From: Aneurinibacillus tyrosinisolvens
GTDB lineage: Bacteria > Bacillota > Bacilli > Aneurinibacillales > Aneurinibacillaceae
Direction: 5' to 3'
NCBI RefSeq assembly: GCF_001015055.1
Contig: NZ_BBWZ01000003.1
Span: forward strand, 116,091-140,090
Length of the DNA: 24,000 bases
Shown here: in pieces, positions 6,086-24,000 of the stretch
Layout of the letters: every line of letters begins with the position of its first letter
How positions within the stretch are numbered: position 1 is the first letter of the stretch
The notes under the pieces: generated by a model
What the model saw: only the letters and a program-made list of their open reading frames with translations
Database searches by the model: none
What the model was told of the DNA's origin: nothing
Made by a program: the position numbers and the translations under genes

Positions 6086-6330
6086 GAACTACTCGGCACT
6101 GAAGTGCCGAGCTTCTTGTGGGCAGACCTTTCGGTCTGAATTACGTGTAACCACTTGAACTTTTCATGTTTCATCGGCGTCTGCCCAACCCCAAAAAGAG
6201 GTGTGGTACAAGCATTCCTTTCGAAATTCCCATCTTGCCGTGGCTTCAGGGGCTTACAACATCTCCACATGCACACTCCGTCGTTCCAACGGTGGAAGAA
6301 AATAAAATGTATCCATTAGGCTCCGAGAAT
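6086..6330 (-). ncRNA. Probable TnpB omega-RNA (reRNA) scaffold derived from the tnpB 3' end and the right end of the IS
   Basis: By analogy to characterised TnpB systems, the guide-RNA scaffold spans the 3' end of tnpB and the right-end (RE) region. This roughly 230-nt non-coding stretch downstream of the tnpB stop contains stable hairpins (ctcggcac/gtgccgag and cagacc/ggtctg). Boundaries are not determined. Confidence 0.4.
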
Positions 6331-7488: not shown

Positions 7489-7905
7489 TTACTCTCCTTT
7501 CTTTTGATTTTCAATATACTGACGAATGGCATCTTCCGATACCGAACCCACGGTTTCCAAATAAAAACTCCGGTTCCACAACGGTCCATTCCCCAATTTT
7601 TTCTTCAGATCAGGATATTCCATAAATAGTTTTCGTGCGGATATTCCTTTCATCATTTTCACTATGTACGAGGGTGCGATTTTAGGATGAGCAGAAACAA
7701 AAACATGAAGATGGTCCTGTTCACCTACTTGGGCTTGATGGACGATAAACTCTTTTTCAGAAGCTGTCTGTTGTAAAATTTCAATCAATCGTTGTTCTAT
7801 TTCTGATGTTAAAACTTTGTTACGATATTTAACAGACCATACCATATGGTAGTTCACATTATATACACAGGTTCTTGCTTTTACTATGTTATTATTCATA
7901 CACAT
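7489..7905 (-). CDS. tnpA: IS200/IS605-family Y1 (HUH) transposase TnpA
   Basis: YHMVWSVKYR, HUH motif HLHVFV, and the catalytic-Tyr helix ...AIRQYIENQ. About 138 aa, typical of TnpA. Confidence 0.93.
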   Translation of the reverse strand: MCMNNNIVKARTCVYNVNYHMVWSVKYRNKVLTSEIEQRLIEILQQTASEKEFIVHQAQVGEQDHLHVFVSAHPKIAPSYIVKMMKGISARKLFMEYPDLKKKLGNGPLWNRSFYLETVGSVSEDAIRQYIENQKKGE

Positions 7906-8094: not shown

Positions 8095-9786
8095 TCAGGC
8101 TTTTTTTACCTCTCCGGTACATACCCGGTTCCGTCCCTGCTGTTTTGCTTTATAAAGCGCCCGGTCAGCCGCTTCGATTAAGGTCATCTGCGAGGCCTCC
8201 TCATCGGGGACAACCCCCGCCACACCAAGGCTAATCGTAACATGGCTGCTCACGGGAGAGAGGAGGTGCGGGATGGCCAGTGCCTCTATCTGCCTCCGCA
8301 GTTGTTCAGCAAGAGCCATCGCACCCTCCAATGCAGTAGTAGGGAGCAGGAGTATGAACTCTTCTCCACCGTAGCGGGCAACAAAATCCCTGGGCCTTTT
8401 TGCCAGCACTTGCAGCGTACGGGCTACCTTTTTTAAGCATTCATCACCTTGGAGGTGGCTGTATGTATCGTTATACGCTTTAAAGCAATCGATATCCACC
8501 ATAATAGCGGAAAGAGGCACGCTGCCAAGGGTGGCACGCTTCCATTCCATGTCCAGGAAATCGTCGAAATAACGCCGGTTCATGATGCCGGTCAAGCCGT
8601 CGATAAAGGAAAGCCTGTGTAATGTTCTGTTCATTTCTTCCAGTTGCATTTCCGCTTTTTTCCGCTCGGTTATATCGCGCAAAGTAAACACCATGCCGGT
8701 AAACACCCCTTCCTGGTTGAACAATAATGTGCTCACCACTTCAAGCCAGACGTAATGCCCGTTTGCATGGCGGCCGCGCAGCTCTCTTCTTCCGGAAAGA
8801 GAGTGACCGGCAGCCATCGCTTTCGTCTCGGCCCGCAAGAGGCGCTTTTCATCCGGGTGAACGAAATCAAATACCGGTTTGCTGAGCATGTCTTTCTCCG
8901 TATATCCGAGGAGACGGTTATGCGCCGGGCTTACGTATGTATAAAGAAAGTGCTCGTCCGTCTCTGCAATCATATCCAGCATATTATCAGTAATCCTGCG
9001 CAAACGTTCTTCGCTTCTCCGCAGGGCTTCCTCCGCGTTCTTTTGTTCTGTAATGTCATGAATCATGACTTGGGTGGCCGGCTTTCCCTCATAACTAATG
9101 GCAGTCGTCGCCACTTCAACGTCAATCTCTTCCCCTTGCAGGGTAATAAACTTCTCCTGTATAAGCAGTATATTCGTCCTGTTTACATAGGATTTATCGA
9201 TACGCTCCCTCACCATGTTTTGATAATCGGGATGGACGAAGTCGAGCACCTGCCTGCCAATGAGTTCGCCTGCATCTTTTGCCCCAAACAGCTTCGCTCC
9301 CGCGTTATTAATAAATAGAAGCCACCCGTCCGCATGGACAGCGATCGGCTCGGAGGAAAACTCAACCAGGCAACGGTACCGCTCATTGCTCTCCCGCAGT
9401 GCGCGCTCTATTCGTTTTTGCTCCGTAATATCCCGCGAGATACCGGCTAATGCGGCCACCTCCCCTTCCTGATCATGGATAGGAGAAATTGTAATGCTTA
9501 TATGAAGAAGAGAGCCATCCCTGCGCTGCCGCTGTGTTTCGAAGTTGGTCACATGTCCGCCGGCCCGCACCTTCTCATAAAGCGCCCGGGTAGATTCTCT
9601 CAGGTAGTGGGGGATAAGCGGGGATGTCGATTGCCCGATGATTTCACCGGCGGGCCAGCCGTACATCTCTTCGAATGCTTGATTCACCTGAAGAATGTTC
9701 GCTTCCAAATCAATGACAATAAAGGCGTGGGTTGTATGGTCGATGAGCGATTCAATACACTTTTTCAAATCGAGTCCTTGTTTCAT
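8095..9786 (-). CDS. PAS-PAS-PAS-GGDEF diguanylate cyclase
   Basis: Three PAS-like repeats are present (each ending ...DITEQK/DITERK). The GGDEF domain has an intact GGEEF (nt 8356-8370) and an RxxD I-site (RPRD) five residues upstream. I place the start at ATG 9786, 8 nt after aaggag; the ORF-track GTG at 9795 overlaps the RBS. Confidence 0.92.
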   Translation of the reverse strand: MKQGLDLKKCIESLIDHTTHAFIVIDLEANILQVNQAFEEMYGWPAGEIIGQSTSPLIPHYLRESTRALYEKVRAGGHVTNFETQRQRRDGSLLHISITISPIHDQEGEVAALAGISRDITEQKRIERALRESNERYRCLVEFSSEPIAVHADGWLLFINNAGAKLFGAKDAGELIGRQVLDFVHPDYQNMVRERIDKSYVNRTNILLIQEKFITLQGEEIDVEVATTAISYEGKPATQVMIHDITEQKNAEEALRRSEERLRRITDNMLDMIAETDEHFLYTYVSPAHNRLLGYTEKDMLSKPVFDFVHPDEKRLLRAETKAMAAGHSLSGRRELRGRHANGHYVWLEVVSTLLFNQEGVFTGMVFTLRDITERKKAEMQLEEMNRTLHRLSFIDGLTGIMNRRYFDDFLDMEWKRATLGSVPLSAIMVDIDCFKAYNDTYSHLQGDECLKKVARTLQVLAKRPRDFVARYGGEEFILLLPTTALEGAMALAEQLRRQIEALAIPHLLSPVSSHVTISLGVAGVVPDEEASQMTLIEAADRALYKAKQQGRNRVCTGEVKKA

Positions 9787-9832
9787 CGTGCGCACTCCTT
9801 GTCTGAAGCTCTTAATTGCTGCTTCTCTTTCT

Positions 9833-10062: not shown

Positions 10063-11634
10063 ATGAAAAGAATTGCATCTTTGTCTTTACTCCTTATGCT
10101 TTTATTTACAAGCGCCTGCAGCCCACTGGGTGCAACGCAGGCAAGCGTTTATGAACCGTTTGCTGATATTGGAGCAAGCTTTGCCCGCACGGAAATTATC
10201 AATTTATATAACCAGGGTATTGTTTCAGGGGAGGGTAACCAGCGGTTTGCCCCGAAAAAACCCGTGACAAGAGCTGTCTTTTTGTCTATGCTCACCCGTG
10301 CTCTCCATTTAAAACCGGTGAGTGGGGCGATCCCGGTTTTCCAGGATGTCCCTAAAACACACTGGGCTTATGCGGCCGTACAGGCCGGTGCAATACGCGG
10401 GGTCACTTCCGGGCGAACAGCGGCACAATTTGATCCGGAAAGCCTCGTTTCCAGACAGGAGGCAGCCTCTCTGCTTGTGAAGGCCATCCACGCTTCACCT
10501 GAGGAATTGCTCCTTCCATATACGGATCGAAATGAGATAGCACAGTGGGCAGCTCCGGCGGTAGCGGCAGCGGGGCAGCGAAATCTTATGAACGGATCAG
10601 GTGGGAAATTCCATCCGAACGATTCGTTAACCCGGGAAGAATTGGCTTCCATTTTGTCTCGTTTATTGTCTCAAGAGGACGCAATCCCGGCTTCAGCAGG
10701 AAATCAACCGATACATATGGGCTGGCAGTATCTATCCAGCAGTTCTGCTTATACGCAAAAAGTGACCCAGTCAGGTATCGTCAATACGCTGTCTCCCCGC
10801 TGGTATTTCCTTGAATCTGACGGCAAATTCAGCGACAGTACAGATGCATCGCAAATCACATGGGCAAAGCAGCATGGGAAAAGCATCTGGGCTATGGTCG
10901 GGAACCGGTTTGATGATAAAGCGACACATCAAATGCTGATCCAGGCCGATAAGCGCGCGGCGGCTGTCCGCCAGCTTGCACAATACGGACAGAAATACCA
11001 GCTCGACGGATTGAACATTGATTTTGAAAACATAAAGCCCGGAGACAGGGACGCTTTTACATCGTTTATTGCCGAGCTTGCAGCGGCTCTTCATGCGGAC
11101 AACCGTAAACTTTCCGTCGATGTGCCGCCGGATCTGGGAACGGACTGGAGCGATCCGTATCATTATGCTTCTCTCGGGAAGTCTGCGGATTACGTTGTCG
11201 TTATGGCGTATAACGAATACTGGTCAGGCCAGGGAAAGCAGGGCTCCACTTCCTCGCTGCCATGGCTGAAAAAACACGTTCTAAAGCTGACACAGCAAAT
11301 GCCGGCAAACAAAATTATCGTTGCCCTGCCTTTTTATACGAACGATTGGTGGAAAGAGGGAGGGCAGGTTAAGTCGGAAGAGCTGACCATACAGGAAGCG
11401 GTGAAGCGGGTGGAACAGCGCCATGCAACAGTGCGATGGGACCCGGCAGCGGGCCAGTACATCGCTTCATATTATGCTAACGGGCAGCAGCATACAATCT
11501 GGGTAGAGGACAGCCGTTCTTTATCGCTAAAGTACCGGACCGTTATGGGAATGGGCGTTGCAGGTGCGGCGTACTGGTATATAGGTGCTGAAAGCCCGGA
11601 TGTATGGCCTGCAGTTAGCAATGAGCTCCATTAG
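10063..11634 (+). CDS. Secreted/lipoprotein-like SLH-SLH-SLH-GH18 cell-wall hydrolase (YdhD/YaaH-type GH18 domain)
   Basis: Signal peptide MKRIASLSLLLMLLFTSAC, then three about 55-aa SLH repeats (FADI..., FQDV..., YTDR...). The GH18 domain carries DGLNIDFE (nt 11005-11028). Confidence 0.9.
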   Translation: MKRIASLSLLLMLLFTSACSPLGATQASVYEPFADIGASFARTEIINLYNQGIVSGEGNQRFAPKKPVTRAVFLSMLTRALHLKPVSGAIPVFQDVPKTHWAYAAVQAGAIRGVTSGRTAAQFDPESLVSRQEAASLLVKAIHASPEELLLPYTDRNEIAQWAAPAVAAAGQRNLMNGSGGKFHPNDSLTREELASILSRLLSQEDAIPASAGNQPIHMGWQYLSSSSAYTQKVTQSGIVNTLSPRWYFLESDGKFSDSTDASQITWAKQHGKSIWAMVGNRFDDKATHQMLIQADKRAAAVRQLAQYGQKYQLDGLNIDFENIKPGDRDAFTSFIAELAAALHADNRKLSVDVPPDLGTDWSDPYHYASLGKSADYVVVMAYNEYWSGQGKQGSTSSLPWLKKHVLKLTQQMPANKIIVALPFYTNDWWKEGGQVKSEELTIQEAVKRVEQRHATVRWDPAAGQYIASYYANGQQHTIWVEDSRSLSLKYRTVMGMGVAGAAYWYIGAESPDVWPAVSNELH

Positions 11635-11673: not shown

Positions 11674-12942
11674 TTATTTAATAACGCGGAAGTTTTTCTG
11701 CATATAAGACCAGTTCTGCGGAAACGGATAATTCAGGTGCCAGAATGTTGCCCCACGCAGCCGGTACACTTCCATTATTCTATATTTGGCCCGCAGGCTG
11801 CGGACGTCCTCAAACCAGACGATTCTCGCCTGCGTTCCCTGTGTGTACTGAAAAAACGGCGCTTCCGCCTGCCAGTTATATTGGATGGAAACCCTTTTGC
11901 TGATTGCCAGGTTCTGGGCGTCACCCGCCGCCAGAGCGCTTGCTGTCGTAGCAGGTGTATCCGGAAGCGGCCAATTATAACCATAGAATGGAAGTGCGAT
12001 CATGACTTTGCTCCGGTTTATCTGGCTTACTATATATTGAACGACTTGCTCAACCCACCAGATCGGAGCGATCGGGTTCGGGGGTCCCTGCGGATAGCCG
12101 TATTCAATCGTCATAACGGCCACAAGGTCGGCGATCTGGCCGATCGTCTTGTAGTCGAACGCCCCGGTGAGCCGGTTTGCAGGATCGTCCTTCGTTTTCG
12201 CAGGGACATTAATGTGCAGGGTGCCCGTGCCAGGCGCAGCTTTAAGTTCACGCAGGAAGGTGCTGAGCTCGGGTCTTCTTTCGGGTGGGATAAACTCAAA
12301 ATCAACACTGATCCCGTTATAGCCCTTCTGCTGTACTGCTCGGGAAATGTTTCGCACAAGCGTCCGCCTGGTGTCCGGGTTTTGAAGCACCTGGCCGATT
12401 CGCACCGGATCGAAGCCGCTTCCTGTCCAGTTTGTCAGAACCATAAGTGGTTTAACACCGTTTTGTTTACTTTCACGAATGGCCCTTTCATCGTCCGGTT
12501 CATTTACCGTTCCATCCGCATTAATCGTGTAGCTGAAAATCGCCGTGTAAGAAAGCTGCCTCGCCACTTCAGGAAAAATAGGATGAAGAATGTCCATTTC
12601 CTCCGGGATAAGGAATCCAAGTGATTCCATGGAATATTTTAGCGGTGTTGGAACGGAGAGCCGCTGTCCGACGGTAAGCTGGTTTGGATTTGTTCCGGGG
12701 TTTGCAGCCGCGATTAGATTTGTGCGTGTACGGTAGCGGTTGGCGATGCTCCACAGCGTATCACCCGGTTGTATTTGATAGAACTGTTCAGGTAATTCGT
12801 TTTGTGGAAGATAAAGGGCGAGCCCGGGGACGAGTGAATCGCCTGGAAGGCCATTTATCTTGCGTATCGTCTGAATAGGCAGGCGGAAGGTTTGTGAGAT
12901 TCCCCATAGTGTGTCCCCCCTTTTAACTGTATAAACTCCCAA
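11674..12942 (-). CDS. sleL: LysM-LysM-GH18 spore cortex-lytic N-acetylglucosaminidase, SleL/YaaH-like
   Basis: Two LysM repeats (YTVKRGDTLWGIS..., YQIQPGDTLWSIA...), a GH18 core ISVDFE, and C-terminal blocks recalled from B. subtilis YaaH (QYNWQAEAPFFQYT, VWFEDVRSLRAKY, FPQNW). I place the start at TTG 12942, 8 nt after ggaaaggag; the ORF-track extension to 13089 runs through a terminator. Confidence 0.9.
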   Translation of the reverse strand: MGVYTVKRGDTLWGISQTFRLPIQTIRKINGLPGDSLVPGLALYLPQNELPEQFYQIQPGDTLWSIANRYRTRTNLIAAANPGTNPNQLTVGQRLSVPTPLKYSMESLGFLIPEEMDILHPIFPEVARQLSYTAIFSYTINADGTVNEPDDERAIRESKQNGVKPLMVLTNWTGSGFDPVRIGQVLQNPDTRRTLVRNISRAVQQKGYNGISVDFEFIPPERRPELSTFLRELKAAPGTGTLHINVPAKTKDDPANRLTGAFDYKTIGQIADLVAVMTIEYGYPQGPPNPIAPIWWVEQVVQYIVSQINRSKVMIALPFYGYNWPLPDTPATTASALAAGDAQNLAISKRVSIQYNWQAEAPFFQYTQGTQARIVWFEDVRSLRAKYRIMEVYRLRGATFWHLNYPFPQNWSYMQKNFRVIK

Positions 12943-13031
12943 CTTATTCGCTCCTTTCCCCACGATTAATGCAAAAGCACCCATTTCTATGGTAAAGCAT
13001 ATGCCTGAATCCGGGAAAAGGAACCACCTCA

Positions 13032-13086
13032 AAGGAAAAAGAAAACACCCTAAACTCTGGTTCCAATCGTCGAGTGCTAGGGTGTT
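13032..13086 (-). terminator. Terminator of the 13092..13403 gene
   Basis: On the minus strand: aacacccta(g)...(t)tagggtgtt stem (13044-13053 / 13077-13086), followed by ttctttttcc, starting 5 nt after the stop. The loop is large. Confidence 0.55.
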
Positions 13087-13091
13087 CATTT

Positions 13092-14554: not shown

Positions 14555-16276
14555 TCACGGGTTAACGCCCCCGGTCACACTGTCTCCGCCGTTATCGACG
14601 GGAGGCAGCGGATTGTTCGGATCAGAAAGGTTCGGATCCGAAGGCACACTGCTATTGCCGCTGTCAGACGGCGGCGGATTCATCTGAACCGAGTTTGGAT
14701 CCTGCAGCCCATTATTTCCACCCTGTTCACTCCCGGGAATACCCGCAGCTGGGGCCGTAGGATAACCGCCTGCCGGGGAGGATGGGTCACTGCTGCCTGT
14801 GTATTTCGGCCCGCTGAACTTATATTCCCCGTCCAGCGGTTCGTAATAAGCCAGCTGGCCCGCGCCTTCGCCTGCTGGATTGTTTACGACCATTACACCT
14901 GGGCTTTCCATATAGAAACTATCGGCCTCAAACGCAAAGATTTGCTTAAAATCAGATTCATGAACCTCAAAGCCGGCAAACAGCGATGCACGATTGTCTG
15001 ACTGTGCTTCGACAACGATGACCGGCAATCCTTCCGGGCTAATCTTTTCCTGGGTATAAAGCGTTTTTGGGACTATTCCCTCGCCTAAGGCTCCTTCCAC
15101 TGTTTTGAAGCCATCGGAGAGGAGGCTGCCATAGTATAATTTACTGTCATCAGAGATGGCTGCCACAAACGATTTTGCGCCCCACCGGTTTTTCCCGTCT
15201 GTCGTAAACGTGAATCTCTTGTCCGGAAATTCACGCTGCAGAAGCCGGACAGGCTGCTGCTCATCCCATTTCTGCTGGGCTAACGCAATTTCCCCGCTTG
15301 TATCCTGATACGGTTTTAGCTTTTCATAAAGATCGATCGCTTTACTGAAGCTGTTCTGTGTGGCAAACCGTTTCGCTTTAGCAAGCAAACTTTTAATTGT
15401 TCTCTTAATGTACCCAAGTGTACCGGAGCCGGAAGGGTAGTATTCCTTCAGTTCTTCATATTTTTTTGCGTGTTCCGCAAAATCGGCGATATTATTTTGG
15501 CGCAGGTCTTTTTCCAGGACGCTTCGGCCAAACCTATTTACCGCTGTAAGCAGCCAGGGAACAGCGATTGAATTTTCTTTGTATATTTTCAGCGTAAGTT
15601 CAGTTTTATTCATTGTCTCGGCAAATTTTCTGCTGCTGCTGAGATAGCTGAACTTTGTCAGCTCGTATTTTTTAAGCTGCGCCTGCATCTCCTGTGTTTT
15701 CTTCTTTTCGCCTCCGAAGTATTGGGAGGGGATCTTAAAATAAGAGAGGAGAAAATCTTCCTTATCATAATTTTTACTCTTGATATTTTCTTTCATCTGG
15801 CCGACAAATCGCGCTTTTGCTTCCGCAAAGGATTTGGCCAGGCTGTTTTCCATCGTGTAATACTTTATCGCCTGGTTGAACATCTCTTTGTTTTTCTTAT
15901 CCAAGGTGCCGGATTTCTGTTTCTGCTCCTGATACCCGGCGTATGCCTGAAGCAGGAGAGGGAAGTCGCCTGTTTCTCTGGCCAGCATAGCCTGCTCTTT
16001 TAACAGCCGTATGCGCCGGACAGGATCCAGAGCGGATAAAGCTTGCTGGATCCTGTCCTCTTTATAGTCAATCGTTCTGTTTTCTTCCGCCTTCGTAAAA
16101 TACTGCTCAGCCAGTACCATGTTGTTCTGTTTCATATATTTCTCCGCTTGCGTGTAGGCGGAAATTTTCATTGAGGTATTGTACAGTTTGTAGCCGGCGG
16201 CCGCAAGAGCGAACAGAAAAGCAACAATAAGTACATTTCTTATCATGATTGTTTTTCTGGGGGATGGTAAAACCAT
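14555..16276 (-). CDS. Membrane-anchored hypothetical protein, 573 aa, with a Pro/Ser/Gly/Asn-rich C-terminal tail
   Basis: N-terminal basic stretch plus a TM segment (IRNVLIVAFLFALAAAGY), a long helical-then-mixed ectodomain, and a low-complexity tail over the last about 85 aa. RBS agaaggga; the gene starts 14 nt after the upstream gene's stop. Confidence 0.8.
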   Translation of the reverse strand: MVLPSPRKTIMIRNVLIVAFLFALAAAGYKLYNTSMKISAYTQAEKYMKQNNMVLAEQYFTKAEENRTIDYKEDRIQQALSALDPVRRIRLLKEQAMLARETGDFPLLLQAYAGYQEQKQKSGTLDKKNKEMFNQAIKYYTMENSLAKSFAEAKARFVGQMKENIKSKNYDKEDFLLSYFKIPSQYFGGEKKKTQEMQAQLKKYELTKFSYLSSSRKFAETMNKTELTLKIYKENSIAVPWLLTAVNRFGRSVLEKDLRQNNIADFAEHAKKYEELKEYYPSGSGTLGYIKRTIKSLLAKAKRFATQNSFSKAIDLYEKLKPYQDTSGEIALAQQKWDEQQPVRLLQREFPDKRFTFTTDGKNRWGAKSFVAAISDDSKLYYGSLLSDGFKTVEGALGEGIVPKTLYTQEKISPEGLPVIVVEAQSDNRASLFAGFEVHESDFKQIFAFEADSFYMESPGVMVVNNPAGEGAGQLAYYEPLDGEYKFSGPKYTGSSDPSSPAGGYPTAPAAGIPGSEQGGNNGLQDPNSVQMNPPPSDSGNSSVPSDPNLSDPNNPLPPVDNGGDSVTGGVNP

Positions 16277-16290
16277 AGCAAGCGTCCCTT

Positions 16291-17034
16291 CTAAAAGAAT
16301 CCTGAAAAGTCAGGATCAAAATCGTATTTCGCTTTAACCAAAGCTTTCGTCCGTAAATAGAGCTCCTCCCAACCGTCGGAGGGGTGAGCCGTGACCAGCT
16401 TGCAGAGCCGCAGAACTCTTTCCTTTGGCAGGTACTCCATATAAGCAACAATAAAGTCTTTATAGCGGTCGACATACGGCTTCATACGCAGTGCCGCGCC
16501 GGCCATGTTTGTAAGAATATCCCGGCCGTTCTCCTGGAGAGCAATATGATGGCAGTGGACAACGGCATAATCAAGCATGCTTTTTTTAATCAGTTCTTTT
16601 TTCACTTTGGAAACTTCCCAGGCGTAGTTAACAAAATCTTTATCATAAGAGGACGGGATGAGCGTTTCCAGCTCCAAATCCATATCTTTGCGGAGCACAA
16701 AGTGATTCAGGCACATGACTTTGCGAATTTTTATCGTATCATTGATGAGAAAACGGCCGACCTCCCGCAATTTTTCATAACTTTCTTTATACCGTTCTTC
16801 TTTAACATCCGTTACGGCGGAAGTGCTGTCCAGCAGTAGTCCTTCCTTAATTCGATAAGCCTCGCTCGTCAGCCATGCTTTATACTGCACGGTTTGTTCA
16901 TAAGGTGCGAATCTTTTATGCAGAAAAAGGTAGCCGATAAGCAATCCGATTCCGATTACAGCGCCAAGGACAAGCTCAAGCAGTGTGCCGGCGAGAACAA
17001 TGCCAAGGCAGAGAAGAATAGATACGATGAGCAA
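16291..17034 (-). CDS. Hypothetical TM protein, 247 aa as called; probably the C-terminal part of a frameshifted gene
   Basis: Begins at a TTG with no RBS and runs straight into a double TM segment. Its frame stays open upstream to a TGA at 17077-17079, next to the T3 run. Confidence 0.7.
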   Translation of the reverse strand: MLIVSILLCLGIVLAGTLLELVLGAVIGIGLLIGYLFLHKRFAPYEQTVQYKAWLTSEAYRIKEGLLLDSTSAVTDVKEERYKESYEKLREVGRFLINDTIKIRKVMCLNHFVLRKDMDLELETLIPSSYDKDFVNYAWEVSKVKKELIKKSMLDYAVVHCHHIALQENGRDILTNMAGAALRMKPYVDRYKDFIVAYMEYLPKERVLRLCKLVTAHPSDGWEELYLRTKALVKAKYDFDPDFSGFF

Positions 17035-17521: not shown

Positions 17522-17611
17522 TCGGGGGAACTCGTTTTTCCAGTATTTAATAGATTCATAATTTTTTCGCTAGTGTGCAAGTTTTGATAACCGAATGTGG
17601 AGGTACTCATC

Positions 17612-19384
17612 ATGTTTTGCCTGAGAAAAAGCACCAAATATCCACTGCTGCTCTTGCTCGCCTTGCTTTTTCAATTGTTTTGTATTCCATCTGCTTATGC
17701 CGCACCGGCGATGAAGTCAAATATTGACGCAGTCCTCGTTGTAGACGTGAGCGGCTCGATGAATGCAAGCGATAAAAATAAAGTAAGCAATGAAGCGATG
17801 AAGATGTTTGTGGACATGTCTTCCCTGCAGGGAGATAAAATCGGGGTTGTTGCTTATACCGACCAGGTTGCACGGGAAAAGGCACCGATTACAATCACTT
17901 CAGAGCAGGATAAAAACGAAATCAAATCGTTTATTAATAAACTGGAAAACCGCTCCTTTACCGATATTGCCGTGGGGGTAAAAGAAGCGGTTAAAATTCT
18001 TGAATCGGGCCATGATCCGTCCCATTATCCAATGGTTGTCCTGCTGGCGGACGGCAACAATGCGCTCGATCCGAAATCGGGGCGAACCCAGCAGCAATCC
18101 GACCGGGAAATGCAGCAGGCAATCCAAACCGCGAAGGCAAACGCCTTTCCTATTTATACGATTGGGCTAAATGCGGACGGTAAGCTGAATAAAACCGTGC
18201 TTGAGAAAATCGCGGCGGAAACGGACGGCAAATTTTTCATGACGAACACAGCGGACTCACTTCCTAAAATCCTGAGTGAGATTTTTGCCGATCACTTGAA
18301 GTTGAAGGTCGTTCCTCTAAAAAGCCTGGTAGCAAACGGACAGTTTCAGGATGTGACCATTTCCATCCCCAATTCAAATGTGCTGGAAGCTAACATTTCC
18401 CTTATGTCGACCCAGCCTGTAGAAGCGAAACTGTTTGATAATACGGGGCAGGAACGAAAAATTCCATCCAGCAATGTATACTACTCGAAATCGAATGCCT
18501 ATTCGCTGATTAAACTGGTCAAACCTGCTTATGGTGATTGGAAACTGAAAGTAAAAGGAATCAATCAGAACAAAATCGACATTAATCTCGTCTTTAACTA
18601 TGACCTTGAATTAAAGATGGACCCGCTGCCGGCGAAAAAGTACAGCGCAGGAGATACAATCAAGGTAAATGCTTCCTTTGAAACAAATGGAGCGAAGGTA
18701 GCGAACCCGGATTTGTATAAAAATATCAAATCCGTGCTGCTAGTAACAGACTTGCAGACGAAGCAGGTACATAAGATAGATTTACATAACACAGGAACTG
18801 CCTTTACAGGAGACTTCAAACTTCCGGAAGCCCACAGCTATGAAGTGAAAGTACGGGCTGAAGAAAAAAGCTTTTACCGGGAGACACAGCCGGTGACCAT
18901 TACCGCAGGACAGGGAGCGACCGGCGTGCAGGCGGCAAAGCAGCCGGTTGAAAAACCGTTCCCCTGGATGCTTACCATCGGCAGCATTCTCGGTCTGCTG
19001 CTCGTGGCGGCGCTCGTTATTTTCCTCCTTTCCGTGGTGAAGAAAGCAAACAAAGGCTTTACAGGGCAGCTGGCTATCGAAATTCGCGATGAAAACACGG
19101 GTGAAAAAACGAGCCCCCAGTATAAAAAACTGCATGCTTTCAAAGGAAAGGTTAAGCTGCACCAGCTTCTGCAGCTCGCTCCGGAGTTTGCCGAAACCGA
19201 TAAAATTGTCTTCTTTCCGGGCAGAAATGACACGGTTATCTTAAAGAACAATTCTGCCTGTGTTATTGAAAAAGCGGGTCGGGCGCTCGATGCAAGCAAA
19301 GGGATTGAATTGAAGAACAACGACCGCATAAGAATTTCGCTGCAGAGTATTGAAAAATCCATCTCTTTAGAATTTATTTTGTAG
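17612..19384 (+). CDS. Secreted vWA (MIDAS) domain, beta-rich ectodomain, single TM, cytoplasmic tail protein
   Basis: Signal peptide ...CIPSAYA/AP. MIDAS DVSGS (nt 17744-17758), plus a downstream T (FTDIAVG) and D (LLADGNN). TM segment WMLTIGSILGLLLVAALVIFLLSVV, then about 110 aa more. I place the start at ATG 17612, 8 nt after ggagg, rather than at GTG 17597. Confidence 0.9.
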   Translation: MFCLRKSTKYPLLLLLALLFQLFCIPSAYAAPAMKSNIDAVLVVDVSGSMNASDKNKVSNEAMKMFVDMSSLQGDKIGVVAYTDQVAREKAPITITSEQDKNEIKSFINKLENRSFTDIAVGVKEAVKILESGHDPSHYPMVVLLADGNNALDPKSGRTQQQSDREMQQAIQTAKANAFPIYTIGLNADGKLNKTVLEKIAAETDGKFFMTNTADSLPKILSEIFADHLKLKVVPLKSLVANGQFQDVTISIPNSNVLEANISLMSTQPVEAKLFDNTGQERKIPSSNVYYSKSNAYSLIKLVKPAYGDWKLKVKGINQNKIDINLVFNYDLELKMDPLPAKKYSAGDTIKVNASFETNGAKVANPDLYKNIKSVLLVTDLQTKQVHKIDLHNTGTAFTGDFKLPEAHSYEVKVRAEEKSFYRETQPVTITAGQGATGVQAAKQPVEKPFPWMLTIGSILGLLLVAALVIFLLSVVKKANKGFTGQLAIEIRDENTGEKTSPQYKKLHAFKGKVKLHQLLQLAPEFAETDKIVFFPGRNDTVILKNNSACVIEKAGRALDASKGIELKNNDRIRISLQSIEKSISLEFIL

Positions 19385-19399
19385 GAGGGCATTTACACC

Positions 19400-22300
19400 G
19401 TGAAAGCCGTTGTGAGAGAACATATCCAGCAGTTAGATGTTTCCCTGGGCGGGGGCATTGTCAGTGAAAAAATTCGTGTGGACACGATTGATAACCCGAT
19501 GCTCGTCATCGGAATCGGCGGAACAGGCATCGATGCCCTGCTTCGTTTAAAATACCAGGTAAATCGCAGATTCAAACTGCCGGAAGACCGGCTGTCTAAG
19601 AAAAAGAAAGAGAAGCCGGATAACATCGAGTTCATTGCATTTGAAACAAACGAACACGACCGCAACAAGAAATATAAAGGACTCGGGCTTGATCCAATCA
19701 CGGAGTTTGTCCTGCTATCCAATGCAGAAATCGGCGGGCTGCTGCAGAATCGCAGCATACTGGAGCCGTACATCACAGACTGGCTTTCTCCTGAACTGAT
19801 TATTACGGATGGGATCGGAGGCGCTTCAGGAATCAGGCAGGCGGGCAGGCTGCTCTTATTTACAAAAATTACTCAGGTTGTACAGACGATTGAGAAGAAA
19901 ATCAGGGCGCTCTCCGAAGGAACGAATAAAAAACTGACCGTATTTATTTTATCCGGACTGTCCGGCGGGACCGGAAGCGGCTGCTTCCTTGACATCTCGT
20001 ACATTGTGCGGGGGATTATGGAGAAGGAGCATGGCAGCGCGGGAGTAGACAGGGTCAACATTCTCGGGTATATGTTTACGCCGGATGTGAACTTATCAAA
20101 TAAAAGCTTAAGCACGCATGCGAGTGAATACATAAAGAAGAACGGATATGCGGCGTTAAAAGAACTTGATTACTGGATGAATGTGGATGAGCGCGGCGAG
20201 CGGTTCAAACAACAGTACGGTAACATTCTAACGGTAAACTCACCCATGCCCCCCTTCAACCTGTGCCACCTCATTTCCGCTACCAACCTGGAAGGCAAAT
20301 CGCTGGAAAATGCGTACGACTACTGCATGAATGTAACAGCCGAGAACATTACTAACTTCATGGCTAACGAGGAAAAGCAGTCCGGAGAAGAGTTCGCGAT
20401 CCATGATTACATTAGCAATATCCGGACAAATATTAATCAAATGCCAAAGGCATATGCCGCAAACTACCAGTACAACATCATTGGCGCTTCTTCCGCCGTG
20501 CTTCCAATTGAGGAAATGACCACATATCTTGCGTATAAACTGTTTAAGAAGATGGAGAAGATGTTCGCGATTGTGCCTGGCCAGGAGGAAACGGAGAGGC
20601 TGGCCAGAAGGCTGGGCATCGACATTGATTCGGTGCATCGTAAGTTCCAGGAAAGAGTCCCTGAACCGCTTCCGGGCTACCAGAACAGTGAGAGATTAAA
20701 TTATAGCAATGTTGTGAAGCAGCAAATTATCAATATGGATACCGAGCTGGAGCAGAACTACTTATCAAGGGCGCGGGAAGAATATATCAAATGCAAAAAA
20801 CAGTTGCCCGGGGAACTGGTTGCCGCTTTCTCCGAACAGATGACGAAGATTTTCCTTCATCCTGAGCAGGGGCCGTTCTATGCTTCACGCATCATTTACT
20901 CGGAAAAAGGCTTCAGTTTGCTGAAGATGATTTCTTCCTACATTGAGAGTTTAAAAGAGAGCAGGGAAAGAATCCCGCGCGATATTCATTCCGCCGGGGA
21001 ATTCGCTCATGAGCGGATGGGGGATGCAAGGAGCGCCTTCATTTCGAAAGAGAAGAAGAAGAATGTGTACATTGAAGCGAAAATTAATGAATACGACCTC
21101 CGCGCCGATCTGGAGAGAACAGAGCAGATGATTGATTTCTACGAGGATTTATCCAATCTGTTAAACAGGGAAAATTCTCGTATTTACCAGGTATTTACCG
21201 AAATTCTGAATGCACTGAACCAAATTTTTGAGAAGAACGGCGATATTCTGATTAGCGGACAGGAAGAACTGGACCGCGGCGGCAATAAAACGTACTACTG
21301 GAACATCGTAAGCGTACCTGACATCGCCAAAGTTATCGGCGATATACTGGATGATCGAAATGCGGACGATTTGATTCGTGAGTTTACAACAGAATTGCTA
21401 AATCGCTCAGACAAATGGGTGAAGGAGCAGGAAGTAGATATTATCAGTTCCATTTCAGACTTCCTGACAGAAGAATTCGGTGATCTAATTACAAAATCAA
21501 TGGAAGACTTCATCATGATTAAGTATGGCGAGGATGAATCGATTGAACGGATTGTGGAACGGAAAATTGCCGACAAGCTGAATGAAGAAGCCATTCCTGT
21601 TTTCCACCTGAGCAACAGTTCCGGCAACCTGCACTTCCCGTCATGGGGCTTTGTTTCCGTGCCAGTAAAGGCGCCGAATATCTTAAAAGGAATTAAAAAC
21701 TATCAAAACACGGCGGTCACACAGTCACGGTTTACCGTGAAAGAAAGTGAAGTAAAGAACCGGATTTTCTGGTTGAATACGAAAAACGGCATTCCATTGT
21801 TCGTCTATACGCCGCTCAAGGTATACGAGGAAAGCTATGAAAAAACGATCCTTGATAAAGAAGGAATTGGCCGCCATCTTGTACAGACGGAAAGGAACAA
21901 CTGGACGTATCTTCCATCCCCAATTCCAGAAAAATCGTGGGGCGACATTTATGAAAACAGGCGGGTGAAAGAATTCAATATCCGGATGCGTGAGCTATTC
22001 AATTCGGCCATCGCGCTCGGATGTATCGCCCAGAAGAACATCGACGCGAATACAAGCAACCGGTACGAGTGTATCATTACGAAGCCGTTTGAGCTTTCCC
22101 GTGTTCTAGCTAAGTACAACATGCAGCTGGATCAAATGAAGCCCAATTTGGCTGAAGTAAAAAAATGTACGTCCGAGTTAAAGGCCTTACTAAACGGAGG
22201 ACTTGAAAGAGAAGGCGTCAGGGATATCTTTGGCAGTGTTAATGAAGAGATGGCGAAGGAAAACCTTATCCGTTCTCCAGAGCTCGTTGCCCTGGTGCGG

Positions 22301-22789
22301 CAAGAAGTCCGTAAATATGAAGAAATCCGGCAGAAGGCGGAGGAACTTGAGAAGGTTCTTGCCTCCTTTGAAGGAGAAGATGAATTGTTCGAACAGTTTA
22401 TCGAAGCAATGTACACCGGCAGCATCTGCAAAAAAGGAGCGCTTTATGTGTATGACAAAGATGCGGATGAAGACGCATGGGAGCCGTTTGTTAATTTAAC
22501 CAAAACAAATCAGTTTATTGAATACGCGATTTTTGAACAGTTCCGTAATTTGGACGCGAAGCGTATGAATACGCTGCGTAAAAAATCGAGCAGACGCAAT
22601 GCGGAGCTGACCGCTTCAGAGGATGTGAACGGGTTAGTTGCCACCATCGAGGAATTGGCCGCCGCATTCCAGGAGAATAAATCCGCGCTCGATTACGACC
22701 GGGATGAAATTGTAAACGGAGAAGAAATGTACCATTTCTATAAGCAGGTATCAGGCAAAGTAAACGCGATGGTAAAAACGCTAAAATAG
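19400..22789 (+). CDS. Giant tubulin/FtsZ-superfamily-like GTPase, 1129 aa
   Basis: MLVIGIGGTGIDAL (G-I-G-G-T-G at nt 19511-19528) and VFILSGLSGGTGSGCF (S-G-G-T-G-S-G at nt 19961-19981, matching the tubulin/FtsZ signature GGGTG[ST]G). A C-terminal extension of about 800 aa is charged and helical. GTG start 11 nt after ggagg, which overlaps the upstream stop. Confidence 0.88.
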   Translation: MKAVVREHIQQLDVSLGGGIVSEKIRVDTIDNPMLVIGIGGTGIDALLRLKYQVNRRFKLPEDRLSKKKKEKPDNIEFIAFETNEHDRNKKYKGLGLDPITEFVLLSNAEIGGLLQNRSILEPYITDWLSPELIITDGIGGASGIRQAGRLLLFTKITQVVQTIEKKIRALSEGTNKKLTVFILSGLSGGTGSGCFLDISYIVRGIMEKEHGSAGVDRVNILGYMFTPDVNLSNKSLSTHASEYIKKNGYAALKELDYWMNVDERGERFKQQYGNILTVNSPMPPFNLCHLISATNLEGKSLENAYDYCMNVTAENITNFMANEEKQSGEEFAIHDYISNIRTNINQMPKAYAANYQYNIIGASSAVLPIEEMTTYLAYKLFKKMEKMFAIVPGQEETERLARRLGIDIDSVHRKFQERVPEPLPGYQNSERLNYSNVVKQQIINMDTELEQNYLSRAREEYIKCKKQLPGELVAAFSEQMTKIFLHPEQGPFYASRIIYSEKGFSLLKMISSYIESLKESRERIPRDIHSAGEFAHERMGDARSAFISKEKKKNVYIEAKINEYDLRADLERTEQMIDFYEDLSNLLNRENSRIYQVFTEILNALNQIFEKNGDILISGQEELDRGGNKTYYWNIVSVPDIAKVIGDILDDRNADDLIREFTTELLNRSDKWVKEQEVDIISSISDFLTEEFGDLITKSMEDFIMIKYGEDESIERIVERKIADKLNEEAIPVFHLSNSSGNLHFPSWGFVSVPVKAPNILKGIKNYQNTAVTQSRFTVKESEVKNRIFWLNTKNGIPLFVYTPLKVYEESYEKTILDKEGIGRHLVQTERNNWTYLPSPIPEKSWGDIYENRRVKEFNIRMRELFNSAIALGCIAQKNIDANTSNRYECIITKPFELSRVLAKYNMQLDQMKPNLAEVKKCTSELKALLNGGLEREGVRDIFGSVNEEMAKENLIRSPELVALVRQEVRKYEEIRQKAEELEKVLASFEGEDELFEQFIEAMYTGSICKKGALYVYDKDADEDAWEPFVNLTKTNQFIEYAIFEQFRNLDAKRMNTLRKKSSRRNAELTASEDVNGLVATIEELAAAFQENKSALDYDRDEIVNGEEMYHFYKQVSGKVNAMVKTLK

Positions 22790-22814
22790 CCTGACTTCCT
22801 CGGGAGGAAGAGCG

Positions 22815-24000
22815 ATGAGGAATTTAGTAAAGCAGTTTTCTGAGCAGTATGCTGCCGATATGGATAAACAAACGTACAGCACGGATGAGCAGCGGAGCCT
22901 TCATAATCCAATCGTATTTCTTTTTATCGGGGATAGGACGCTTGATGCGCTAAACGCGATGTATGAACTGAATGCAACCAAGTGGAACAACAGCACAGGC
23001 GTACTGTACGCGCATATTTACTCCACCAAAACAGCGGAAAGAACAAACGTATACAGCTTCCGGATTGAAGAGCCGGCGGAAGACAAAAAGCAGCTGCGCA
23101 GGCGTGTATACGAGCAGTTTTACGAAAACGAGAGCAGGCTTATCGAACTGAACCGGATGATGAGGCAGGTGAGCAGCCGGGTCTCCGAATTCGGGAACAT
23201 GTATTCTTCGTTTGAGCGGATGAACGTAGCGGTCGTAACCCGGGCGGACGATCCGTTAAATGTACTTCTGCCTGAGATCACTCTGCTCATGAAAAATGTT
23301 TTTAGTGAATCGTTCAGAATTGTAAACCTCGATTTATATACGCTTATTAAAGAAAAAACAGCCGGGGAAGACTTTGCTTTCACTTCTTCCCTTGGTGTTA
23401 GTTTTTTGCGGGAGATAGAATACTACCAGGCCGAAAACTATCGTTTTCACGAAATGCTGCAGGTTACGGAGGACCATATTAAGCTTCCTGTGGAGCACCC
23501 TCCGTCACCTCTTTTTGATCTCGTTTATTTATTGAGTGACAGGGATGAACGAGGCATCATTATGGAGCACAGCATGGAAACAAATTACGAGATTATTTGC
23601 AGTATTAACCTGTTGAAAAACAGGAAAGCAGTGACAAATCCGGGCGAAAACAATGCCAGCTACAGCAATATACAGTTTAAGCGAAACATCCATCCGGAGT
23701 CTGGCCGAACGGCCTATGCTTCCGCTGGCTTTGCTAAAGTAAAACGTCCAAACCGCACGATTGCGCTTACGGTTCTTCTTTATTTCTATGAAACGGTCAT
23801 TGATAGACTGAAGCAGTGTGCAAGTCTGGATAAAAAACAGGTGCTTGAGCTGTTTGAACTCGCTGGCCCCTCTTTGGGCGGGAAGCTTCGTTCTTTCGTA
23901 CCCGGAGAGGAGCGGATTGAGGAGATGACGAGCCTAATGCCGATGCGGGCTTCGTATACTGAACTGAAAAAACTGACACTTCGGCAGGCGGAGGAGAGGC
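22815..24000 (+). CDS. Hypothetical protein, 3'-partial (over 395 aa); likely a degenerate paralogue of the tubulin-like protein
   Basis: Not in the ORF track because it has no stop inside the window. I translated it by hand from ATG 22815 (RBS gggaggaag), and the frame stays open to nt 24000. Its N-terminal blocks parallel those of the upstream protein, but the Gly-rich nucleotide-binding motifs are replaced. Confidence 0.8.
   Translation, partial: MRNLVKQFSEQYAADMDKQTYSTDEQRSLHNPIVFLFIGDRTLDALNAMYELNATKWNNSTGVLYAHIYSTKTAERTNVYSFRIEEPAEDKKQLRRRVYEQFYENESRLIELNRMMRQVSSRVSEFGNMYSSFERMNVAVVTRADDPLNVLLPEITLLMKNVFSESFRIVNLDLYTLIKEKTAGEDFAFTSSLGVSFLREIEYYQAENYRFHEMLQVTEDHIKLPVEHPPSPLFDLVYLLSDRDERGIIMEHSMETNYEIICSINLLKNRKAVTNPGENNASYSNIQFKRNIHPESGRTAYASAGFAKVKRPNRTIALTVLLYFYETVIDRLKQCASLDKKQVLELFELAGPSLGGKLRSFVPGEERIEEMTSLMPMRASYTELKKLTLRQAEER

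What the first reader, a model, noticed from the sequence alone, without database searches (positions are those of the whole stretch)
22815..24000. Active/inactive tubulin-like pair: the downstream gene mirrors the GTPase block by block but has lost the Gly-rich loops
This is a by-eye comparison of the two products. PMLVIGIGGTGIDALLRL corresponds to PIVFLFIGDRTLDALNAMY. ITQVVQTIEKKIRALSE corresponds to IELNRMMRQVSSRVSE. LTVFILSGLSGGTGSGCFLDISYIVRGIM corresponds to MNVAVVTRADDPLNVLLPEITLLMKNVF. VNILGYMFTPDV corresponds to IVNLDLYTLIKE. The order and spacing of strand and helix blocks are preserved, while GGTG and GGTGSG are replaced by non-glycine residues. That pattern suggests a nucleotide-binding-deficient paralogue acting as an obligate partner, a cap or a regulator. 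It loosely resembles heterodimeric tubulins or pseudo-enzyme partners.
Basis: inference. Interest (0 to 1): 0.65.

Follow-up and report, generated by a model that had tools for sequence, protein, structure and literature searches.

The report
Dead tubulin-like partner of FtsZl1
The gene at the end of the window really is a diverged copy of the tubulin-like GTPase gene just upstream that has lost its GTP-binding glycine loops, but this two-tubulin gene pair belongs to an operon type already catalogued in Firmicutes, so it is a confirmed, modestly interesting and still untested case, not a new kind of system.

Summary
Gene 3 (22815 to beyond 24000, + strand; 395 of about 785 codons visible) is a true homologue of gene 2 (19400-22789, a 1129-aa FtsZl1/Pfam Tubulin_2 protein). 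The profile-profile alignment gives probability 95.8 %, E 6.7e-9. An AlphaFold model of gene 3 finds TubZ, tubulin and CetZ as its best PDB matches.

The glycine loops are gone in every orthologue. GLGGTG becomes F-I-G-D-K. GLSGGTGSG becomes T-R-x-D-D-P, with D146 present in 81 of 81 sequences. These replacement loops are more conserved than the rest of the protein, and the ORF is intact in 80 of 80 genomes, so gene 3 is a selected pseudo-GTPase and not a decaying copy. It follows gene 2 in 80 of 80 loci, inside a conserved operon: vWA, FtsZl1, gene 3, vWA, a small protein, DO-GTPase, GAP1-N2.

Makarova & Koonin (2010) listed this family as "B8". Kaur et al. (2020) already reported two tubulin-domain genes in these Firmicute systems. 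The only new point is that the second copy is nucleotide-dead. Whether it is a partner, a cap or a decoy is inference.

The parts
22815..24000 (+). Gene 3, N-terminal 395 codons of a ~785-aa protein (runs off the window). It is a degenerate tubulin/FtsZ-like domain: T1-equivalent F-I-G39-D40-R, T4-equivalent T142-R-A-D-D146-P147. The start of the helical region follows.
22799..22814 (+). Ribosome-binding site (GGGAGG at 22802-22807) and spacer of gene 3; the gene 2 stop codon is at 22787-22789.
19400..22789 (+). Gene 2, 1129-aa FtsZl1 / Pfam Tubulin_2 protein with intact GIGGTG (38-43) and GLSGGTGSG (186-194) loops and a long helical C-terminal part.
   Evidence: (PF13809 E 1.6e-79)
17597..19384 (+). 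First vWA-domain protein (595 aa). By eye only (no predictor run): N-terminal hydrophobic signal-like segment and a hydrophobic segment near residue 470. It is the first gene of the conserved operon.
   Evidence: present just upstream of gene 2 in 78/80 loci; cut off by the contig start in the other two, L006 and L078
16291..17034 (-). Divergently transcribed 247-aa protein with no family hit, syntenic with the operon.
   Evidence: (77/80 loci)
14555..16276 (-). Divergently transcribed 573-aa protein with an N-terminal hydrophobic segment and a P/S/N/G-rich tail, syntenic with the operon.
   Evidence: 68/80 loci

Best explanation
Gene 3 encodes a nucleotide-binding-deficient paralogue (a pseudo-GTPase) of the adjacent FtsZl1 tubulin-like GTPase. 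It keeps the tubulin/FtsZ fold and the first helical or coiled-coil region. Its phosphate-binding T1 and T4 loops are replaced by conserved acidic motifs (G-D and R-x-D-D-P). It is co-transcribed, and probably co-translated, with gene 2. Most likely it binds gene 2 through the remodelled former nucleotide face and/or the shared helical region, forming a hetero-oligomer in which only gene 2 turns over GTP. The pair is the cytoskeleton-like module of a Firmicute vWA / DO-GTPase / GAP1-N2 operon, whose own role (conflict or defence, or membrane remodelling) is only predicted. Shown here: homology, fold, loss of the loops, selection on the new loops, strict synteny. Inferred: loss of GTP binding, physical interaction with gene 2, any effect on assembly.
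For: Homology: hhalign probability 95.8 %, E 6.7e-9 over 533 columns, against controls at E >= 0.17. Pfam Tubulin_2 is hit by 21/24 orthologues in the same register, best E 2.8e-6, and above the gathering score by the distant member P0187, 29.6 bits. Fold: the gene 3 model has pLDDT 80-93 across most of residues 30-270 (71.9 overall); its best PDB matches are TubZ 3v3t (E 1.2e-4), 4ei7 and 2xkb, then tubulin and CetZ. The gene 2 model matches only FtsZ, CetZ and tubulin. Loss of loops: 0/81 gene 3 sequences against 80/80 gene 2 sequences have the Gly motifs at T1 and T4. Selection: intact 766-842-aa ORFs in 80/80 genomes. The T1-, T4- and T6-equivalent loops have mean conservation 0.80-0.82 against 0.63 overall. 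Linkage: gene 3 directly follows gene 2 in 80/80 loci and in L081, with a median spacer of 7 nt and an SD site in the window. Faster evolution than the catalytic partner: median 44 % against 72 % identity to the window proteins. Operon context: vWA2 in 78/80 loci; the B9-like protein, DO-GTPase and GAP1-N2 in 80/80. Literature: two tubulin-domain plus coiled-coil genes are reported in exactly these systems (PMC7159879).
Against: No experiment or complex prediction was possible, so interaction with gene 2 rests on linkage only. A HMMER profile of the gene 3 family does not reach any FtsZl1 protein among 1.84 billion representatives; the link needs profile-profile or structural methods. Foldseek TM-scores are low (0.3-0.4), and four of the five gene 3 models had pLDDT ~53-55. 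The gene 2 model is of low confidence, pLDDT 56. Conserved Asp/Glu residues in the former pocket could in principle coordinate a metal-nucleotide in a non-canonical way. FtsZl1 occurs without a gene 3 homologue in other lineages, so a partner is not intrinsically required.
Confidence: 0.6

Rival explanations
1. Gene 3 is a sub-stoichiometric cap or negative regulator. It docks on one end of a gene 2 protofilament and blocks further growth, because it can neither present a nucleotide nor offer a normal partner face. It would set filament length or keep gene 2 unassembled until the DO-GTPase/GAP1/vWA module signals.
For: The same data as the main explanation: dead T1/T4 loops that are nevertheless conserved. 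At the position aligned to the invariant acidic stretch S-G-E-E-F-A-I-H-D of gene 2 (residues 328-336, invariant), the gene 3 family has Y283-N-N..F and no conserved acidic pair. This hints that it also cannot activate a neighbour's GTPase.
Against: The close spacing (median 7 nt) suggests roughly equal synthesis rather than a minor capping factor. The T7 loop has never been confidently located in FtsZl1 (PMC2875224), so the claim of no activating residues rests on a low-confidence alignment and model.
Confidence: 0.2
2. Gene 3 is a decoy or sensor. In a conflict (anti-phage) system, an inactive copy of the effector-like tubulin binds invader proteins that target the active copy, or reports their presence to the GTPase switch.
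For: Kaur et al. place the operon among predicted conflict systems and propose decoy roles for inactive domains in such systems (PMC7159879). Gene 3 evolves much faster than gene 2, 44 % against 72 % identity, as expected for a component in an arms race.
Against: None of nine operon proteins scanned (vWA1, gene 2, a full-length gene 3 orthologue, up247, up573, vWA2, the 211-aa protein, DO-GTPase, GAP1) matches any PADLOC defence model. The operon is syntenic and vertically conserved across Paenibacillus, Brevibacillus, Neobacillus and Cohnella with the same flanking genes, unlike typical mobile defence islands. The most conserved parts of gene 3 are the remodelled loops, not what is expected for a diversifying decoy surface.
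Confidence: 0.1
3. Gene 3 still binds or hydrolyses a nucleotide through non-canonical residues, so the pair is two active tubulin-like proteins, as in BtubA/BtubB.
For: G39 is invariant, and several invariant acidic or polar residues (D40, D146, E154, E180, D242, E245) line the equivalent of the pocket. A T6-like N-E-x-G motif is shared with gene 2.
Against: Every glycine of the tubulin signature at T4 and two of three at T1 are replaced. The T4 loop is shorter by one aligned residue and carries two Asp where backbone amides normally hold the phosphates. No family member, including 71 distant representatives, retains the motif.
Confidence: 0.07
4. The resemblance is chance or only a generic Rossmann-like similarity, and gene 3 is unrelated to gene 2.
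For: Pairwise BLASTP E-values are only 0.03-0.05. The first narrow-profile hhalign gave 41 % probability. Foldseek also lists Rossmann-fold enzymes from rank 6 on.
Against: The broad-profile hhalign gives E 6.7e-9 with clean controls. Pfam Tubulin_2 hits are consistent in 21/24 members, and one member is above threshold. The top structural hits are all tubulin-superfamily. There is independent published assignment.
Confidence: 0.03

Closest known systems
Second tubulin-domain protein of Firmicute GAP1-N2-type DO-GTPase systems (Kaur, Burroughs, Iyer & Aravind, eLife 2020, PMC7159879)
   Same: Same operon content: two vWA genes, two tubulin-domain plus helical/coiled-coil genes, DO-GTPase, GAP1 with N2 and M domains. 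Gene 3 is the only candidate for the 'second tubulin' in the operon.
   Different: [quoted passage not shown] The window itself stops before the DO-GTPase and GAP1 genes.
Family 'B8' of Makarova & Koonin 2010 (representatives CKL_1665, BBR47_57140; PMC2875224)
   Same: Same position directly downstream of a 1129-aa FtsZl1 in Brevibacillus brevis, and the same length: 782 aa against 782-785 aa in the Brevibacillus loci here.
   Different: [quoted passage not shown] I did not align BBR47_57140 itself.
FtsZl1 / Pfam Tubulin_2 (PF13809), i.e. gene 2
   Same: Homologous over ~560 residues, with the same secondary-structure order and a shared T6-like motif.
   Different: Gene 3 has no Gly-rich T1/T4 loops, is ~345 residues shorter with an unrelated C-terminal end, falls below the Pfam threshold (13.3 bits for the window fragment) and evolves faster.
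alpha/beta-tubulin and BtubA/BtubB heterodimers (own knowledge)
   Same: Adjacent or paired paralogues of the tubulin fold with divided labour; in alpha/beta-tubulin only one nucleotide site turns over.
   Different: In those pairs both subunits keep the signature motif and bind GTP. Here one subunit has lost the site altogether. No heterodimer has been demonstrated.
ARC3 of plant chloroplasts: an FtsZ-like domain without GTPase motifs that binds FtsZ and restrains its assembly (own knowledge, not checked here)
   Same: A nucleotide-dead member of the FtsZ/tubulin superfamily that acts on an active paralogue.
   Different: Different lineage, different architecture (ARC3 carries a MORN domain), and not encoded next to its partner. 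The analogy is functional only.
TubZ (plasmid and phage tubulin-like partition GTPases; PDB 3v3t, 4ei7, 2xkb)
   Same: Best structural matches of the gene 3 model.
   Different: 10-14 % identity and TM-score 0.3-0.4. TubZ is an active GTPase working with TubR and centromere DNA. No such genes are among those identified in the operon.

Membership tests
Tubulin/FtsZ superfamily (fold level) | Rossmann-like N-terminal domain S1-H1...S6, core helix H7, then a C-terminal domain | tested here: met
   The AF2 model (pLDDT 80-93 across most of residues 30-270) has this element order. The Foldseek top PDB hits are TubZ, tubulin and CetZ with probability 0.92-1.00. TM-scores are only 0.3-0.4.
Tubulin/FtsZ superfamily (fold level) | Tubulin signature motif GGGTG[ST]G in loop T4 | tested here: not met
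   The aligned segment is T-R-A-D-D-P. D146 is present in 81/81 and P147 in 79/81 sequences, and no family member has the Gly motif there.
Tubulin/FtsZ superfamily (fold level) | Glycine-rich T1 loop after strand S1 | tested here: not met
   Only G39 is kept (81/81); the next residues are D40 (78/81) and K/R. Gene 2 has G-L/I-G-G-T-G in 80/80.
Tubulin/FtsZ superfamily (fold level) | Acidic catalytic residue(s) in T7/H8 that activate the neighbour's GTPase | tested here: inconclusive
   The stretch aligned to gene 2 S-G-E-E-F..D is Y-N-N..F in gene 3. T7 is not reliably located in FtsZl1, and the gene 2 model is poor there.
Tubulin/FtsZ superfamily (fold level) | GTP binding, GTP hydrolysis and polymerisation | not testable with these tools
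   Needs biochemistry.
Pfam Tubulin_2 (PF13809) = FtsZl1 | Score at or above the gathering threshold (27 bits) | tested here: not met
   Window fragment 13.3 bits, E 0.049. The Brevibacillus orthologue scores 22.4 bits. 21/24 orthologues hit below or near threshold. Only the distant relative P0187 passes, at 29.6 bits.
Pfam Tubulin_2 (PF13809) = FtsZl1 | Detectable homology to bona fide FtsZl1 over the whole domain | tested here: met
   hhalign probability 95.8 %, E 6.7e-9, g3 27-589 against g2 28-637; controls negative.
Pfam Tubulin_2 (PF13809) = FtsZl1 | Operonic association with a vWA-domain gene | tested here: met
   vWA at 17597-19384. vWA1 lies just upstream of gene 2 in 78/80 loci (cut off by the contig start in the other two), and vWA2 is present in 78/80.
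'B8' family (Makarova & Koonin 2010) | ~780-aa protein encoded directly downstream of FtsZl1 in Brevibacillus/Clostridium-type operons | tested here: met
   BBR47_57140 is 782 aa and lies after BBR47_57150, 1129 aa. The orthologues here are 766-842 aa, 782-785 aa in Brevibacillus. Direct sequence comparison with BBR47_57140 was not done.
Firmicute GAP1-N2 DO-GTPase system (Kaur et al. 2020) | DO-GTPase gene plus GAP1 with an N2-type N-terminal domain in the same operon | tested here: met
   Met in relatives, not visible in the window. L062 has DO-GTPase1/2 (E 3e-9) and GAP1-N2 (E 5.8e-49) plus GAP1-M. Both genes are present in 80/80 loci and in L081. The window ends inside gene 3.
Firmicute GAP1-N2 DO-GTPase system (Kaur et al. 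2020) | Two tubulin-domain proteins with C-terminal coiled-coil and two vWA proteins | tested here: met
   Gene 2 and gene 3. vWA1 is in the window and vWA2 is present in 78/80 relatives. The coiled-coil itself was not predicted; only helical content was seen.
alpha/beta-tubulin-type heterodimer | Both subunits bind GTP; a stable 1:1 dimer is the assembly unit | tested here: not met
   Gene 3 lacks the nucleotide-binding loops. Dimer formation is not testable with these tools.

The most novel reading that the evidence does not exclude
Gene 2 and gene 3 form an obligate heterodimer that is the assembly unit of a bacterial tubulin-like polymer, in which one subunit is constitutively nucleotide-free. 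The acidic R-x-D-D-P loop would occupy the former phosphate site and serve as the longitudinal contact. Polymerisation would be switched by the DO-GTPase/GAP1 pair in response to an extracellular vWA sensor. That would be a signal-gated cytoskeletal effector with no characterised counterpart.
Probability: 0.2. Interest if true: 0.65.

Novelty: already known. Interest (0 to 1): 0.33.

Why it matters
FtsZl1 proteins are the most divergent branch of the FtsZ/tubulin superfamily. Since 2010 it has been unclear whether they polymerise at all or what they do (PMC2875224). In a large block of Paenibacillaceae and related Bacilli, the active protein is always made together with a nucleotide-dead paralogue under selection. 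That gives a concrete experimental handle: co-express the pair, and ask whether assembly or GTPase activity needs both. It also corrects database annotation, because gene 3 orthologues are almost all labelled 'hypothetical protein'. It does not reveal a new kind of system. The gene pair and its operon were already catalogued by comparative genomics.

Tried and rejected
1. Pairwise BLASTP of gene 3 against gene 2 gave only weak collinear HSPs (E 0.027, 0.049), which is insufficient alone.

2. The first hhalign, with narrow profiles (Neff 3.2 against 2.2), gave 41 % probability. It joined only residues 193-470 and left the N-terminal block as a separate weak hit. It was superseded by the broad profile.

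3. A HMMER profile of gene 3 against 1.84 billion representatives returned 107 relatives, none of them an FtsZl1. So there are no intermediate sequences bridging the families at HMMER level, and no gene 2-gene 3 fusions.

4. Sequence search of the PDB with both family profiles found nothing relevant.

5. NCBIfam gave no family for gene 2, gene 3, up247 or up573. PADLOC gave no defence-system model for any of the nine proteins scanned.

6. The C-terminal ~200 residues of full-length gene 3 against gene 2 residues 630-1129 gave E 0.18. An impression by eye of a shared C-terminal beta-rich motif was therefore not supported.

7. Pseudogene idea: the first database search returned mostly truncated or frameshifted entries, but all 80 genomic copies are intact. 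Rejected.

8. The gene 2 AlphaFold model was of low confidence (pLDDT 56) because its alignment is 81-95 % identical. It was used only for secondary-structure order and fold class.

9. Two gene 3 orthologues matched a loose Gly-motif regex. The match (GGGSG at residue 89) lies in the variable insert, not at T1 or T4.

Full report
**What is at the coordinates**

An ORF starts at ATG 22815, eight bases after a GGGAGG ribosome-binding site and 25 bases after the stop codon of the preceding gene. It runs without a stop to the end of the window at 24000, giving 395 codons.

The preceding gene (19400-22789, + strand) encodes a 1129-aa protein that matches Pfam Tubulin_2 (PF13809) over residues 35-385 with E 1.6e-79. 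This is the FtsZl1 family of Makarova & Koonin 2010 (PMC2875224). A 595-aa vWA-domain protein is encoded just upstream at 17597-19384.

**Is the similarity real?**

Pairwise BLASTP gives only two weak collinear matches: g3 194-253 against g2 249-305 with E 0.027, and g3 28-46 against g2 29-47 with E 0.049. The window fragment hits Tubulin_2 only below threshold (13.3 bits, E 0.049).

I therefore collected relatives. A genome scan found 279 tblastn-confirmed gene 3 relatives (E <= 1e-3) in a collection holding one genome for each of 185,579 species. The best 80 were fetched, from Paenibacillus, Brevibacillus, Neobacillus, Cohnella, Fontibacillus and Bacillus.

- A first hhalign with narrow profiles joined only g3 193-470 to g2 248-519 (E 2.8e-4, probability 41 %).
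- I added the more distant relatives found by a profile search of 1.84 billion representative proteins. The gene 3 profile then had Neff 6.25.
- With that profile, hhalign aligned g3 27-589 with g2 28-637 in one piece: 533 columns, score 82.3, probability 95.8 %, E 6.7e-9.
- A reversed and 20 column-shuffled versions of the gene 2 alignment scored 15-23, with E 0.17-0.79.

Independent support comes from Pfam. Of 24 full-length orthologues, 21 hit Tubulin_2 in the same register (residues ~197-326 to profile positions 227-352), with a best E of 2.8e-6. A distant family member, P0187, passes Pfam's own threshold at 29.6 bits.

**Fold**

An AlphaFold2 model of the 395 residues was built from a 14-sequence alignment. 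It has mean pLDDT 71.9, and 80-93 across most of residues 30-270. Its element order is S1-H1-S2-...-H3-S4-H4-S5-H5-S6-H7.

Its best PDB matches are TubZ structures (3v3t E 1.2e-4; 4ei7; 2xkb), followed by tubulins and CetZ with probabilities 0.92-1.00. TM-scores are low (0.3-0.4), and generic Rossmann-fold enzymes appear from rank 6.

A model of gene 2 residues 1-440 is poor (pLDDT 56) because its alignment is 81-95 % identical. Even so, it shows the same element order and matches only FtsZ, CetZ and tubulin, with 122 hits at E <= 1e-3. No solved structure is related to either family by sequence.

**The lost loops**

| Loop | Gene 2 (80 sequences) | Gene 3 family (81 sequences) |
|---|---|---|
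| T1 | G-L/I-G-G-T-G, invariant | P32-x-V-F-L-F-I-G39-D40-K/R; G39 81/81, D40 78/81 |
| T4 | G-L/I-S-G-G-T-G-S-G, invariant | T142-R-x-D145-D146-P147...E154; D146 and E154 81/81, P147 79/81 |

None of 71 more distant representatives has a Gly-rich motif either. Two regex matches in orthologues lie in a variable insert at residue 89, not at T1 or T4.

The loss is therefore ancient and universal in the family. The replacement loops are among the best-conserved parts of the protein: mean top-residue frequency is 0.80-0.82 for the T1-, T4- and T6-equivalents, against 0.63 overall. The ORF is intact at 766-842 aa in all 80 genomes. This is the signature of a selected pseudo-enzyme, not of decay.

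The first protein-database search had returned mostly truncated or frameshifted entries. That is an artefact of what the index retrieved.

**Extent of the mirroring**

Homology covers the tubulin-like domain and about 200 residues of the following helical region. The last ~200 residues of full-length gene 3 and residues 638-1129 of gene 2 are not detectably similar (E 0.18).

**Context**

- In all 80 loci, gene 3 directly follows a gene 2 orthologue. A vWA1 orthologue lies just upstream of gene 2 in 78 of the 80; in the other two (L006, L078) the contig starts inside or just before gene 2.
- The two divergently transcribed upstream genes of the window are also syntenic: the 247-aa protein in 77 of 80 loci and the 573-aa protein in 68 of 80.
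- Downstream, beyond the window's end, relatives encode a second vWA protein (78/80), a ~211-aa protein (80/80), a DO-GTPase (80/80) and a GAP1 protein with N2 and M domains (80/80).
- A Paenibacillus polymyxa-type contig reached from the gene 2 side shows the same order.
- The gene 2-gene 3 spacer has a median of 7 nt over 64 loci, is 10 nt or less in 33, and exceeds 100 nt in 17.
- Gene 2 is far more conserved than gene 3: median 72 % against 44 % identity to the window proteins.

**Comparison with the literature**

Makarova & Koonin (2010) list Brevibacillus brevis BBR47_57160 (vWA, 597 aa), BBR47_57150 (FtsZl1, 1129 aa) and BBR47_57140 ('B8', 782 aa). [quoted passage not shown]

Kaur, Burroughs, Iyer & Aravind (2020) define the GAP1-N2-type DO-GTPase systems. 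[quoted passage not shown] That is this operon, and gene 3 is the only candidate for the second tubulin.

I found no statement in that main text that one copy is inactive. I found no experimental work on FtsZl1, B8 or DO-GTPase systems. No PADLOC defence model matches any of the nine proteins scanned.

**Mechanism**

Shown:
- Gene 3 is a paralogue of gene 2 with a tubulin/FtsZ-type fold.
- It lacks the canonical phosphate-binding loops.
- Those loops have been remodelled into conserved acidic motifs.
- It is co-encoded with the active paralogue without exception in the 81 loci examined (80 from the genome scan plus L081).

Inferred:
- It does not bind GTP.
- It binds the gene 2 product, through the former nucleotide face (the longitudinal contact surface in tubulin-family polymers; established knowledge of FtsZ and tubulin filaments) and/or the shared helical region.
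- It thereby forms a heterodimer or co-polymer, or caps and limits gene 2 assembly.

I rate the heteromeric-partner reading as most likely, a capping or negative-regulator variant second, and a decoy or sensor role in a conflict system third. Residual nucleotide binding and chance similarity are unlikely.

A pairing requirement is lineage-specific. The 2010 neighbourhood table lists FtsZl1 with only a vWA gene for Bacillus anthracis, B. cereus and B. thuringiensis. Actinobacterial systems have one tubulin gene.

**Verdict**

The functional interpretation is reasonable but untested.

The gene pair and its operon are already in the comparative-genomics literature. What this analysis adds is explicit, controlled evidence on four points: the second tubulin-like protein is nucleotide-dead, is under selection, evolves faster than its partner, and is unannotated in domain databases. 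Interest is modest, because it offers a clear experiment on a 15-year-old open question about FtsZl1 but is not a surprise to a specialist.

Noticed in passing
window 6316-7482 (-), and ORF 7489-7905 (-): IS605-family OrfB/TnpB-like protein (OrfB_IS605 E 9e-29, Cas12f1-like TNB domain E 1.7e-23, HTH_OrfB_IS605) with a 138-aa ORF directly upstream. Probably an IS200/IS605 element.
   Followed up: no
window 8095-9795 (-): 566-aa protein with three PAS domains and a GGDEF diguanylate cyclase domain.
   Followed up: no
window 10063-11634 (+) and 11674-13089 (-): Two convergent glycoside-hydrolase-18 proteins, one with SLH domains and one with two LysM domains. These are cell-wall or spore-cortex-type enzymes next to the operon's upstream genes.
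   Followed up: no
window 14555-16276 (-) and 16291-17034 (-): Two proteins with no Pfam or NCBIfam family: 573 aa with a P/S/N/G-rich tail, and 247 aa. They are divergently transcribed from the vWA gene yet syntenic with the operon in 68/80 and 77/80 genomes. They may be further, undescribed components of the system.
   Followed up: partly
window 19400-20719 (gene 2 N-terminal 440 aa): Extreme conservation: 81-95 % identity across Brevibacillus and Paenibacillus with more than 200 invariant positions. This is much higher than for the vWA protein (median 57 %) or gene 3 (median 44 %).
   Followed up: partly
window 17597-19384 (+): By eye, the vWA protein has an N-terminal signal-like hydrophobic segment, a second hydrophobic segment near residue 470, and a ~100-residue C-terminal domain without a family hit. 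This suggests an extracytoplasmic vWA domain with a cytoplasmic tail that could contact the tubulin-like proteins.
   Followed up: no
proteins P0003, P0006, P0007, P0012, P0014: Many database entries for gene 3 homologues are frameshifted or truncated, and the word-indexed search returned only 23 hits, although intact orthologues exist in at least 80 genomes. This is a retrieval artefact worth remembering when judging family size.
   Followed up: yes
L023 and L042 (Neobacillus), downstream of gene 3: These two loci lack the second vWA gene but keep the 211-aa protein, DO-GTPase and GAP1.
   Followed up: no
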